From: Okamejei kenojei
Taxonomy: Eukaryota
NCBI GenBank assembly: GCA_035221665.1
Contig: CM069155.1
Location: 29,388,001 to 29,452,000 of the forward strand
Direction: 5' to 3'
Length of the DNA: 64,000 nt
The position numbers are program-made. Positions 41,501 through 44,500 of the stretch are shown here, in pieces; position 1 is the first letter of the stretch; every line of letters starts with the position of its first letter.

Positions 41501-44500
41501 TTTCTCCCTTGTCAGTTTTGCCAGATAGCTGGAGTGCCCGTATTCTATTCACCTTTAATTGAATATGGATGTGCTGTGTGTAAAGTTGCTGTCGTCCTGC
41601 AGTGCTACAAAGTCGAAAGAACTCTGGAAGTGGTCGGTGAGAGCCAATATGACCCCTTTTACTTCATTCATATATGCATTAATTTTGTACAGGTAACCTT
41701 TCCACTTTGAGTCGTGGCAAGTGTTGCGATTTACTACGCATTACAATATGAGAGTATCACAGACCACTATTCCAATCACGACACACATCGGGTGGTCAAA
41801 ATTGCCTCAAAACTGCAACTTTACTGACATTTGTTGTGATGATCTGCCCCCTCAGGTCCTTTTTAAATTATCTGATACACAAGTAGAAGGGGTTTATGAT
41901 TTATAAAACTACAAAGATATCTAAATATAGATATAAAGTGATATTTAATAAAACATTGCTGAGGAGGTGACTGTCATCATATTAGATTCAGCGATTCGGA
42001 TTCAGTTGGACCGTTTAGATAAAACATTTCTATTCCATTTTCATTGGTGATTAAATAATTACCGAATATAATATTTAAAACTTGCAGACAATTTGTTTAA
42101 TATATATATGCGTTGGGGTCATACAGAAAATTATAGTTTGTTTGTTTATAAAGAAGGGGCAACTGTGACAATCCTTTTCATTCTGCTCTAGTTATGAGAA
42201 TGCATGAAGCTTTTTAGAAATACAAGTCTCTAAAATAAGACCTGCATGTTTCACAGTGGCGAATGTTTTGAGGAAGAATCTGGCAATTTCTGATTGGCTT
42301 CGACGAGCATACCGGTTTGATTGGTTTGGAGAGATAAACACAAGGTGAAATCTCGTCATTCCATTTATAAAGAGAGCCAGAGAGCAAGATTACACGCCAC
42401 TTGTCCTGGAAACTGCCGCCCCATCGGAGCTCGGTCGGTTAATGAAAATGTCTTATTGGATCCGTGTGGTCGGTGCGTTGGTTTTTTGCGCAGTTTGTGA
42501 GTATTTTACTTTTCCTGACATTATACTTATTACTGTTCACCATTATTTTGGGGTTATCTCCCATACTTCAACAAACTTAACAATTTTTTTTTTCTGATAT
42601 TTCTCTTTTCTCAGACTTAAGCGCGGCAGTTACAGTAAGTCAGCCGCCGCCGATGTCCACCTCTATAGGACAGAAAATACAAATATCCTGCACCATATCG
42701 GGCTCCAGTTCAGGCGCTAACTATGTCTCCTGGTACCAACAGATTCCTGGCAAAACTCCCAAGTATCTATTCTACCATTATACCAGTGGCAGCATTTATA
42801 AAGGCACGGACATTCCAGACCGTTTTTCCATCTCGGTGTCAGGCAGTTCTGTAATATTCGCAATATCTAGCGTTCAATCGGTGGATGCTGCGGACTATTA
42901 CTGTGCCAAATGGGATAGTGGTTTATATTTCGGTAAAGGAACGAGGCTGGGTATTGGCGGTAAGTAAAATATGTTCTTCGGACAGCGCGCTGTTTTATTT
43001 TTATTTTAATGCAGATATTGCTTGATTTAACGTCGTGATTTCACATTATACGTGATTGAGCCAGCTGTATTTCAGTGTAGATAGTGCGGCCATGCTATAC
43101 AGATGTTCCGAGTTCACTTGGACATAACTCAGTGAAATGACTGCAAAAGCGAGCGAATGTTTTGTTTTGTGCTTTTACAGACGAACAATTTCTCAACATA
43201 AGTATTCTGTGCCCAGGGAACCTTGGGCCTTGAACTCGCTTAGGACTGTAGCTACTTGGATTCCCTTTTAGGCATTGGGGTTTGGTTGAACGGTGCCGCG
43301 ATGCGAAGGAATTATATGTTCCACGTTGTGTTGTTTAATATTGAAGCAAGTGTTACACTCTGTAGCCCATTATACTCCAGTTGAATCACGAAAATAATGT
43401 ATATAATTGTTTCACTGATCAGAGCCATATTCCACCTTTAAAGCATTTCAAAACAACCATGACCCGAGTAAGACTAACTCTTACAGTGTAATTAGAAATC
43501 TCGCAGCTGCGATTCCAAAAAATATATAATTTTACAGTTTACAGAATTACTTCGGGTCGCACTATATGAATGCACTATAACATGTGATGCAAATCTTCAA
43601 TTTTCCATTTTGCTTCCCATCCAATAATGTTCGCATACTTCCCAATGCGAATGGTGTCATTTCTCCCGGATTTTGAAATCGTCAATTAAATGAGGGTTGA
43701 TGTTGAATTGAAGTTGCATGGAATAGGGTTCGTTCAATACATTGCGGAAATATTCGCAGTGATTGTCCATATATGAAAGGAAATTGCTTTAGTAACGGGG
43801 GTCAGCAACGTTAATATTCAACACTGTCAAAATTCCGGTTGAGGTGTTTAACAGGGATATCAAAATGCGAAATGAGAAAGTGTCGCACATTTCTTTCAGA
43901 AATTTTGTTTAATACGTAGAGCAGCCTTTTGAACTACAATGTCATCCTTGCTTCTGAACGACGTCTGCGAATCTGTGACCGTGGCTTTCGAAAACTAGTT
44001 TCCATATATCTTTGCCGAACTTAAATAGCGCCACCCTCCATCTCAATGGTGCCGACAATTAAATAAGTTTAATCTGTTATTATAAATTTCCCGACCGCGA
44101 ATCGTTTATATATGCTGATATATTTAAATAAAGCCGGAGCTGTGTGGTAAAATGAACATTACGAAAGTTATAATAATGTATTCAGTTTTATAAAATAGTG
44201 CCGCCATGATCTATCACATATGGTTTCCCGGAGTTTATGCATATGGCAGACAGGATCTATTCCAGTTGCTTTCACGTGCTTTAAAAAAAACACACTATAA
44301 TGGTTTGAAATAGGTCGAGAATAAACGGCTTATTTCTACAAATTAATAAATTAGTGCTTCAATGAGATGTATTTTCGGCAAATAATGATATATCAACGAC
44401 AGCAATTCTCCAATTAAATGTGACTTCTTATTAAACAGATCCTCAGGCACCGATCGTGACGGTCCTCCCGCCCTCAGCCGATGAAGTTACCTCAAAGGGC

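What the first reader, a model, noticed from the sequence alone, without database searches (positions are those of the whole stretch)
42615..42959. Germline-joined, intact V-J light chain gene with fixed CDR3 AKWDSGLY
Seen: V and J are fused in frame with no heptamer or nonamer, while the leader intron, J-C intron, promoter and polyA site are all retained, so this is not a retrocopy. Known: elasmobranch lambda (type II) clusters are germline-joined, attributed to RAG activity in germ cells, and diversify by somatic hypermutation. It is an inherited, pre-rearranged antibody chain: a known phenomenon, but the central gene of the window.
Basis: partly seen in the sequence, partly recalled or inferred. 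Interest (0 to 1): 0.7.

Follow-up and report, generated by a model that had tools for sequence, protein, structure and literature searches.

The report
Skate germline-joined lambda light-chain gene
This is an intact antibody lambda light-chain gene of a skate whose V and J parts are already fused in the inherited DNA, an ordinary example of a textbook peculiarity of sharks and rays.

Summary
Window 42615-42959 (+) is one open 345-nt exon encoding a complete Ig V domain, including the J-type FGKGTRLGIG strand. No recombination signal lies in or beside it. It is flanked by a split leader (ATG 42442), a 118-nt leader intron, a 1479-nt J-C intron, one C1-set exon (44439-44761) and AATAAA (44941). 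The promoter claim is only partly supported: a TATA-like box and two inverted CCAAT boxes, but no canonical octamer.

The C exon is 69-70% identical to sandbar-shark chains deposited as 'immunoglobulin lambda light chain'. It is separated with full support from a second light-chain group of 51% identity or less. The nearest relatives are skate gene models: Leucoraja 90%, Rhinoraja 80% and Amblyraja 77% in VJ. They keep the same 8-residue junction, AKWDSG[LV][HY], so the join is inherited, not somatic.

Expression, hypermutation and a RAG origin remain inferred. The exons were searched separately and never joined.

The parts
42293..42324 (+). two inverted CCAAT boxes (ATTGG at 42293-42297 and 42320-42324) upstream of the gene
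   Evidence: read from the sequence; motif names recalled; no statistical test
42364..42372 (+). TATA-like box TTTATAAAG, about 70 nt upstream of the ATG
   Evidence: no canonical octamer within 400 nt upstream
42442..42496 (+). leader exon: ATG, 18 codons and the first base of a split Tyr codon; donor GTGAGT at 42497
   Evidence: tblastn 42442-42495 is 18 of 18 identical to the start of P0006
42497..42614 (+). leader intron, 118 nt, GT...AG with a pyrimidine tract
42615..42959 (+). germline-joined VJ exon (345 nt, phase 1 at both ends; codons 42617-42958 = 114 aa)
42701..42724 (+). CDR1, GSSSGANY (8 residues, delimited by my alignment to the human lambda V domains shown)
42776..42796 (+). CDR2, HYTSGSI (7 residues)
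42905..42928 (+). CDR3 = fixed V-J junction, AKWDSGLY (8 residues)
42929..42959 (+). J-derived FR4, FGKGTRLGIG, plus the first base of the split Asp codon; donor GTAAGT follows
   Evidence: 0 of 10 residues differ in each of 3 orthologues
42960..44438 (+). J-C intron, 1479 nt; holds one exact ATGCAAAT (43587-43594)
44439..44761 (+). constant-region exon (C1-set, 106 full codons plus stop TGA 44759-44761), ending ...RSSCI
44941..44946 (+). AATAAA polyadenylation signal, 180 nt after the stop

Best explanation
This is a complete, apparently functional immunoglobulin lambda (type II / NS3-type) light-chain minilocus of a skate (order Rajiformes). It is organised as leader, VJ and C exons, and the V and J segments are already fused in the inherited DNA.

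Shown here:
- the exon-intron anatomy
- intact reading frames and splice phases
- a complete V fold that includes the J strand
- absence of RSS
- the lambda-type C domain
- a junction shared with three other skate genera.

Inferred from published work on sharks and skates:
- The gene is transcribed in B cells from the promoter upstream of the leader and spliced L-VJ-C. By codon arithmetic this gives a 240-residue precursor (18 + 1 split + 114 + 1 split + 106).
- The chain pairs through its C-terminal Cys with an Ig heavy chain.
- It needs no RAG cutting. It therefore has no junctional or combinatorial diversity of its own.
- Diversity comes from the many paralogous clusters and from AID-driven hypermutation.
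- The fused state arose secondarily by RAG-type recombination in germ cells of an ancestor. It has been inherited at least since the split of Rajidae and Arhynchobatidae.
For: Anatomy and intactness:
- The VJ frame is open, and the other two frames are closed.
- Pfam V-set E=1.5e-15 and C1-set E=5.8e-27.
- AlphaFold model of the VJ exon alone: mean pLDDT 93.7, pTM 0.87, with strands through residues 109-113.
- Foldseek found at least 500 PDB matches. The top ones are antibody light-chain V domains, TMq 0.79-0.87.
- The split codons implied by the splice sites (Tyr, Asp) are the residues found at those positions in P0004.

No RSS.

Single cluster:
- 27 light-chain queries matched the window with E<0.1 only at 42442-42495, 42617-42958 and 44438-44758.

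Isotype:
- Of 99 proteins with E<=1e-5 to the C exon, 90 are 62-94% identical. Two of these are deposited as 'immunoglobulin lambda light chain [Carcharhinus plumbeus]' (70% and 69%).
- The other 9 are 45-51% identical.
- A C-domain tree splits these two groups with SH-aLRT 100 (38 of 104 proteins plus the window).
- In the two PDB alignments printed, domains I recognise as lambda-type V score 86.7 and 89.1 bits. Those I recognise as kappa-type score 61.5 and 71.8.

Inherited join:
- The VJ exon forms a clade supported 100/99 with Leucoraja erinacea P0004, Rhinoraja longicauda P0006 and Amblyraja radiata P0005.
- Their CDR3 are AKWDSGLH, AKWDSGLH and AKWDSGVH, all 8 residues.
- CDR3 differs at 1, 1 and 2 of 8 positions and FR4 at 0 of 10. 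CDR1+CDR2 differ at 3, 9 and 6 of 15, with indels.

Literature (passages read):
- The same statement appears in PMC5192425.
- The little skate has type II (PMC5985310, Table 2).
- Nurse-shark NS3 is called nonrearranging and is detected in lymphoid-organ RNA but not in thymus (PMC2435157).
- Joined genes arise by RAG-like activity in germ cells (PMC2193156).
Against: - No canonical Ig octamer lies within 400 nt upstream, so promoter function is not established from sequence.
- No expression data could be consulted.
- Signs of hypermutation targeting are not significant in this one gene. AGY serine codons are 4 of 6 in CDRs against 4 of 15 in frameworks (p=0.15). WRCH/DGYW hot bases are 9 of 69 nt in CDRs against 25 of 273 nt in frameworks (p=0.37).
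- The tissue that was sequenced is unknown.
- The orthologues are protein models only. Their genomic V-J configuration could not be seen, because no vertebrate DNA collection was available.
- CDR1/CDR2 lengths of 8 and 7 equal the pattern reported for sigma-2 as well as falling in the lambda range (PMC5985310). This criterion does not discriminate.
- No sequence named sigma-2 was available for comparison.
Confidence: 0.88

Rival explanations
1. The joined VJ is a somatic B-cell rearrangement that entered the assembly from lymphoid or blood DNA, while the true germline allele is split.
For: The source tissue is unknown. A single window cannot show read support.
Against: Three other skate species carry the same junction length and 6-7 of 8 identical CDR3 residues with an identical J region; independent somatic joins would not agree in this way. 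A consensus assembly would not favour one clone among many. Reviews report all lambda genes as joined (PMC4279169, PMC5192425, passages).
Confidence: 0.02
2. The gene is a silent relic: structurally intact but not, or no longer, expressed as an antibody chain. Some germline-joined heavy-chain genes of the horned shark behave this way.
For: No canonical octamer upstream. PMC2193156 (passage) reports that joined H-chain genes of the horned shark were not detectably expressed, and that joined NS4 genes were expressed only early in life.
Against: All three exons are open. Splice sites and phases are intact. The invariant Cys/Trp/Cys residues, the FGxG motif and the C-terminal Cys are kept. Frameworks are conserved across two skate families while CDR1/2 vary. 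PMC2193156 (passage) states that cDNAs exist for the all-joined isotypes of sandbar shark, skate and nurse-shark NS3.
Confidence: 0.06
3. The fused VJ exon is primordial: a lambda V exon that was never split by the RAG transposon, rather than one rejoined secondarily in germ cells.
For: All cartilaginous-fish lambda genes studied are joined (PMC4279169). No scar of recombination can be recognised in the junction here. PMC2193156 (passage) says the question was initially open.
Against: The lambda loci of sterlet and of tetrapods are split with 23/12 RSS (PMC5985310, passages), so a derived join in elasmobranchs is more parsimonious. PMC2193156 shows recent RAG-like joining in another shark isotype. 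The J part here is a typical J (FGKGTRL... followed by a GT donor), as expected of a once separate segment.
Confidence: 0.08
4. The gene belongs to the other all-joined skate isotype, type I (sigma-2 / sigma-cart), not to lambda.
For: [quoted passage not shown] The CDR1/CDR2 lengths of 8 and 7 equal the sigma-2 pattern given in PMC5985310. NCBI's automatic names are unreliable (P0006 is called kappa-like).
Against: The C exon is 69-70% identical to depositor-named sandbar-shark lambda chains and falls in their group with full support. The V is up to 50% identical to solved light-chain V domains and, by my recognition, is closest to human lambda V domains, sharing their W-D-S-x-L CDR3 motif.
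Confidence: 0.03

Closest known systems
Leucoraja erinacea 'immunoglobulin lambda-1 light chain-like' gene model (P0004, 240 aa), with its counterparts in Rhinoraja longicauda (P0006) and Amblyraja radiata (P0005)
   Same: VJ exon 90%, 80% and 77% identical. C exon 92%, 90% and 94% identical. Leader 18 of 18 identical to P0006. Same 8-residue CDR3 and identical FR4. One clade at 100/99. Same total length by codon count (240) as P0004.
   Different: 11, 23 and 27 of 114 VJ positions differ (indels counted), mostly in FR1, CDR1 and CDR2. The window's species is none of the three, or the gene is an unannotated paralogue. Only their proteins were seen, not their DNA.
Sandbar shark (Carcharhinus plumbeus) lambda light-chain genes, the classic germline-joined type II clusters (Hohman et al. 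1993, cited in PMC2193156; the paper itself is not held)
   Same: Same isotype: C 70% and 69% identical to P0061 and P0079. Same L-VJ-C layout with fused VJ (layout from the literature).
   Different: Different V subfamily (42% and 39% identity to the VJ exon). CDR3 is 11 residues against 8, and the J is FG[RS]GTKLNL against FGKGTRLGIG.
Nurse shark NS3 (lambda) nonrearranging light chains
   Same: Described as germline-joined VJ, nonrearranging, and detected in lymphoid-organ RNA (PMC2435157, passages). About six loci, all joined (PMC5192425).
   Different: No NS3 sequence was compared here. It is a shark, not a batoid.
Skate type I (sigma-2) light-chain clusters (Anderson et al. 1995, PMC2192082, abstract only)
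   Same: Same animals, same cluster layout, all germline-joined, expressed and possibly somatically mutated.
   Different: A different isotype. The C exon here groups with lambda.

Membership tests
Cartilaginous-fish Ig light-chain cluster (L-V-J-C minilocus) | Split leader, one V(J) exon and one C exon on one strand within a few kb, with phase-1 introns | tested here: met
   Leader 42442-42496, VJ 42615-42959, C 44439-44761. The split codons give Tyr and Asp, as in P0004.
Cartilaginous-fish Ig light-chain cluster (L-V-J-C minilocus) | V-set domain with the conserved Cys, Trp, Cys and the FGxG J motif; C1-set domain ending in a Cys for the H-L disulfide | tested here: met
   Pfam V-set 1.5e-15 and C1-set 5.8e-27. 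C25, W39, C96, G108 and T109 are invariant, and F105 and G106 nearly invariant (90% or more), in 30 sequences. The C exon ends RSSCI. Model pLDDT 93.7.
Lambda (type II / NS3) isotype | C domain groups with sequences named lambda and apart from other light-chain isotypes | tested here: met
   70% and 69% identity to sandbar-shark 'immunoglobulin lambda light chain'. 90 of 99 hits are 62-94% identical and 9 of 99 are 45-51%. The split has SH-aLRT 100. The identity of the second group is unknown.
Lambda (type II / NS3) isotype | V domain closer to tetrapod lambda than to kappa | tested here: met
   86.7 and 89.1 bits to lambda-type domains against 61.5 and 71.8 to kappa-type domains, in the two alignments printed. 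Which domain is lambda or kappa is my recognition, not a tool label.
Lambda (type II / NS3) isotype | CDR1 of 3-9 and CDR2 of 3-7 residues (PMC5985310) | tested here: inconclusive
   CDR1 is 8 and CDR2 is 7. This is within the lambda range but equal to the sigma-2 pattern (8 and 7). Table S5 of that paper could not be seen because supplements are closed.
Lambda (type II / NS3) isotype | RSS arrangement V-23 / 12-J | not testable with these tools
   There is no RSS in a joined gene.
Germline-joined Ig gene | V and J contiguous and in frame in genomic DNA, without heptamer or nonamer, with introns kept | tested here: met
Germline-joined Ig gene | Same configuration in non-lymphoid or germ-cell DNA and in other individuals | not testable with these tools
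   The tissue of origin is unknown. Indirect support: the same junction is found in models of three other skate genera.
Germline-joined Ig gene | Expressed, and diversified by somatic hypermutation | not testable with these tools
   No transcript data. The AGY and hotspot biases are not significant.
Processed retrocopy of a rearranged transcript | No introns, poly(A) tract at the 3' end, no own promoter | tested here: not met
   Both introns are present. No A-run follows AATAAA at 44941. TATA-like and CCAAT boxes lie upstream.
Skate type I (sigma-2) joined light chain | C domain groups with named sigma-2 / type I sequences | tested here: inconclusive
   No sequence named sigma-2 was returned. 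The positive lambda grouping argues against membership.

The most novel reading that the evidence does not exclude
This is not just one of many interchangeable joined lambda clusters. It may be a distinct orthologous sub-lineage of Rajiformes with its own C region: the four C domains sit apart from the other 26 lambda C domains. Its junction is invariant, with CDR3 changing at about the framework rate (4 of 24 cells against 39 of 273) while CDR1+CDR2 change at 18 of 45. On this reading the sub-lineage has been kept since before Rajidae and Arhynchobatidae split because its pre-set binding surface has a fixed job. Candidate jobs are an innate-like or early-life light chain, or a preferred partner of germline-joined heavy chains. 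This would be analogous to the nurse-shark sigma-2/IgM1gj pair described in PMC4279169.
Probability: 0.15. Interest if true: 0.5.

Novelty: new member of a known kind. Interest (0 to 1): 0.2.

Why it matters
Germline-joined antibody genes show that a V(D)J-type receptor can be returned to an ordinary, non-rearranging gene, and that RAG has acted in germ cells. They matter for how adaptive immunity arose and for how sharks and rays build a repertoire without junctional diversity. This locus adds nothing new in principle: it is a clean, well-delimited example in a skate assembly, useful for annotation. The one modest addition is that the fused junction of this sub-lineage is conserved across two skate families while CDR1 and CDR2 vary.

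Tried and rejected
- I translated the leader from a wrong start and got nonsense. The correct leader (42442-42496) came from reading and from tblastn.
- the protein search at near lengths (62-200 aa) found nothing. This is an effect of the length window, because full chains are about 238 aa. The 'longer' search found 30.
- Octamer search: 84 sites with at most 1 mismatch against 92.5 expected. None lies in the 400 nt upstream of the ATG. The single exact site near the gene lies in the J-C intron and is at chance level.
- RSS searches: at chance level, with nothing at the gene.
- Hypermutation-targeting tests: serine AGY/TCN p=0.15 and WRCH/DGYW p=0.37, neither significant. CDR against framework differences were significant only against P0006 (p=0.007) and not against P0004 (0.23) or P0005 (0.18).
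- The listing of cluster members was switched off, so accession numbers and member names of the clusters of P0004-P0006 were not seen.
- Papers not held: Hohman 1993, Criscitiello & Flajnik 2007, Flajnik 2024. Rast et al. 1994, the first description of skate type II, is recalled only. PMC2192082 holds only the abstract and references.
- The VGP preprint PMC13320880 (passages) did not distinguish light-chain types in cartilaginous fish, and the word 'joined' does not occur in its main text.
- Not used: genome contigs (prokaryotes only), search_dna_similar (phages, plasmids, E. coli), the search of protein representatives, the protein atlas and complex prediction. None could bear on a vertebrate locus or on an open question here.
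Nothing relevant is expected there.
- The joined (spliced) protein was never built or searched. The three exons were handled one by one.
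Full report
**What is there.**
On the + strand the window holds one compact immunoglobulin light-chain gene.
- The leader starts at ATG 42442. It runs for 18 codons plus one base to 42496, followed by the donor GTGAGT.
It is followed by GTAAGT.
- It is a phase-1 exon, so codons start at 42617. That frame is open throughout, while the other two frames have 4 and 5 stops.
- The exon's translation runs from the end of the leader peptide through FR1, CDR1 (GSSSGANY), FR2, CDR2 (HYTSGSI) and FR3. It then reads ...DYYC, AKWDSGLY, and the J-type motif FGKGTRLGIG.
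- A 1479-nt intron leads to a single constant exon, 44439-44761. It ends ...RSSCI and then TGA. AATAAA lies 180 nt further on, at 44941.
- The two split codons implied by the splice sites read Tyr and Asp. Both are the residues found at those positions in the closest full-length relative.
- By codon count the precursor would be 240 residues, the length of that relative.
- I searched, aligned and folded the exons one by one and did not join them into a spliced protein, so no search was made with the full chain.

**Is it real and more than chance?**
- Pfam gives V-set (E=1.5e-15, residues 10-112, so including the J strand) and C1-set (E=5.8e-27).
- More than 10,000 distinct PDB sequences match the VJ exon at E<=1e-5.
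- An AlphaFold model of the VJ exon alone, using a 30-sequence alignment, has mean pLDDT 93.7 and pTM 0.87, with a complete set of strands up to residues 109-113.
- Foldseek returns antibody light-chain V domains with TMq 0.79-0.87.
- tblastn with 27 cartilaginous-fish light chains matched the window with E<0.1 only at the three exons. Every other place had E>=0.16. So this is the only Ig cluster in the 64 kb.

**No recombination signals.**
- CACAGTG occurs 10 times in the window against 8.1 expected, and never in the exon. The nearest site (42252) lies upstream of the TATA-like box and has no nonamer behind it.
- A scan for heptamer (CAC fixed, at least 6 of 7), a 12 or 23 (plus or minus 1) spacer and nonamer (at least 7 of 9) found one weak site in the whole window, at 5702. 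Shuffles averaged 0.7.
- The only heptamer-like string in the exon is the reverse of the conserved Tyr-Cys codons.

**Not a retrocopy; promoter only partly supported.**
- Both introns are present, and no A-tract follows the poly(A) signal.
- Upstream there is a TATA-like TTTATAAAG (42364-42372) and two inverted CCAAT boxes (42293, 42320).
- The canonical Ig octamer is absent. No ATTTGCAT or ATGCAAAT, even with one mismatch, lies between 42045 and 42441.
- One exact ATGCAAAT lies in the J-C intron (43587-43594). With 4 exact sites in the window this is no more than chance.

**Whose gene, and which isotype?**
- A search at similar length found nothing, because full chains are longer.
- Among longer proteins, 30 matched the VJ exon.
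- The best full-length chains are skate gene models:

| Protein | Species | VJ identity |
|---|---|---|
| P0004 | Leucoraja erinacea | 90% |
| P0006 | Rhinoraja longicauda | 80% |
| P0005 | Amblyraja radiata | 77% |

- Next come sawfish, stingrays, a manta and a sawshark at 54-62%.
- The leader is 18 of 18 identical to P0006.
- The C exon matched 99 proteins. Of these, 90 are 62-94% identical (P0005 94%, P0004 92%, P0006 90%).
- Among the 90 are two sandbar-shark chains that their depositors named 'immunoglobulin lambda light chain' (70% and 69%).
- The remaining 9 are only 45-51% identical.
- A C-domain tree (38 of the 104 retrieved proteins plus the window, picked by hand to cover species and both groups) separates the two groups with SH-aLRT 100.
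- The V domain scores 87-89 bits against what I recognise as human lambda V domains, and 62-72 bits against kappa domains, in the alignments printed.
- I therefore file the gene as lambda (type II / NS3).
- CDR1/CDR2 lengths (8 and 7) fit lambda but also equal the sigma-2 pattern given in PMC5985310, so they do not help.
- NCBI's automatic names are not evidence: P0006 is called kappa-like.
- The window is from a skate (Rajiformes). It is either a species other than the three named or an unannotated paralogue.

**Is the join inherited?**
The sequenced tissue is unknown, so this rests on comparison.
- In a VJ tree (47 of 104 proteins plus the window) the exon forms a clade with P0004, P0006 and P0005, supported 100/99.
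- These species belong to two families, Rajidae and Arhynchobatidae.
- All four genes have an 8-residue CDR3: AKWDSGLY, AKWDSGLH, AKWDSGLH and AKWDSGVH.
- Against the window, the three relatives compare as follows:

| Region | P0004 | P0006 | P0005 |
|---|---|---|---|
| CDR3 (8 positions) | 1 | 1 | 2 |
| FR4 (10 positions) | 0 | 0 | 0 |
| CDR1+CDR2 (15 positions, with indels) | 3 | 9 | 6 |

- Independent somatic joins would not agree in this way.
- More widely, a junction was recognised in 89 of 104 proteins.
- In the V subfamily that holds this gene (33 rows, support 97/86, from skates, stingrays, a manta, sawfish and a sawshark), CDR3 is 8 residues in 25 rows and 9 in 8. The J is almost always FGKGTRL.
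- Other V subfamilies have their own CDR3 lengths (5, 9 or 11) and the J FG[RK]GTKLNL.
- Junction type thus follows gene lineage, as expected of inherited joins.
- Caveat: these are protein models, and I could not see their DNA.

**What is known.**
- Passages read in two reviews state that all lambda (type II) genes are germline-joined in every cartilaginous fish studied (PMC4279169, PMC5192425).
- PMC5985310 (Table 2) lists type II for the little skate.
- The abstract of Anderson et al. 1995 (PMC2192082; body not held) reports that all type I genes of Raja are joined, expressed and possibly mutated.
- Lee et al. 2000 (PMC2193156, passages) argue for RAG-like recombination in germ cells. They note that cDNAs exist for the all-joined isotypes of sandbar shark, skate and nurse-shark NS3.
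- Malecek et al. 2008 (PMC2435157, passages) treat NS3 as nonrearranging and detect it in lymphoid-organ RNA but not in thymus.
- The original sandbar-shark genomic paper and Criscitiello & Flajnik 2007 were not held. Rast et al. 1994 is recalled only.

**How it most likely works.**
- Shown: an intact non-rearranging L-VJ-C lambda gene with a fixed junction shared across skate families.
- Inferred: B-cell transcription, splicing, and pairing with heavy chains through the terminal Cys.
- Inferred: no junctional diversity, with the repertoire drawn from many paralogous clusters and from hypermutation.
- Inferred: origin by RAG action in ancestral germ cells.
- Sequence signs of hypermutation targeting are in the expected direction but not significant: AGY serines 4 of 6 in CDRs against 4 of 15 in frameworks, p=0.15; hotspots p=0.37.

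**Verdict.**
This is an ordinary new member of a well-described kind. The only mildly new point is the cross-family conservation of this sub-lineage's junction and of its own C-region type. That leaves room for a fixed, innate-like role, and I rate this at about 15%.

Noticed in passing
window 22985-28737 (-), 45466-49677 (-), 50100-54400 (+): Three long copies of one LINE family, 85-92% identical to each other, with endonuclease and reverse-transcriptase ORF pieces (Pfam hits in 5 of 10 ORFs tested). The second and third lie head to head, just 3' of the Ig gene. The Ig cluster sits in a LINE-free gap of about 6 kb (39495-45466).
   Followed up: partly
window 29660-31685, 33834-34134, 35401-36783, 37365-38295, 38816-39495, 63164-64000: Older fragments of the same or a related LINE family (74-90% identity to the copy at 50100-54400), in both orientations.
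   Followed up: partly
window 43587-43594: One exact ATGCAAAT octamer on the + strand inside the J-C intron, while none lies in the promoter region. Only 4 exact sites occur in the window, so this is chance level, but the position is where an intronic enhancer would sit.
   Followed up: no
window 42252-42258: An isolated CACAGTG heptamer about 110 nt upstream of the TATA-like box, without a nonamer at a 12 or 23 spacing. Chance level.
   Followed up: yes
window 6001-8000, with a 125-nt tandem repeat at 7632-7881: A G+C-rich island (58% against about 42% elsewhere) with long stop-free frames on both strands and no Pfam match for the one ORF tested (6450-7061). Nature unknown.
   Followed up: no
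window 20516-20597 and 60099-60182: A perfect (AC)41 microsatellite and a G-run of 84 nt.
   Followed up: no
window 55877-56203 and 58476-58895: An A+T-rich stretch (28-35% G+C) with two ORF pieces that look to me like a different, L1-type element (a coiled-coil ORF1-like piece and an ORF2-like piece). No Pfam hit.
   Followed up: no
window 613-1112, 55125-55421, 59009-59508: Three runs of N (500, 297 and 500 nt). They were left as they are.
   Followed up: no
proteins P0097-P0105: A second, clearly separate light-chain group of sharks and rays, 45-51% identical to this C exon, with J FG[PQ]GTKLF and longer CDR3. All but P0098 (named kappa light chain-like) and P0105 (hypothetical protein) are auto-named 'lambda-1 light chain-like'. 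This is probably another isotype mislabelled by automatic naming.
   Followed up: partly
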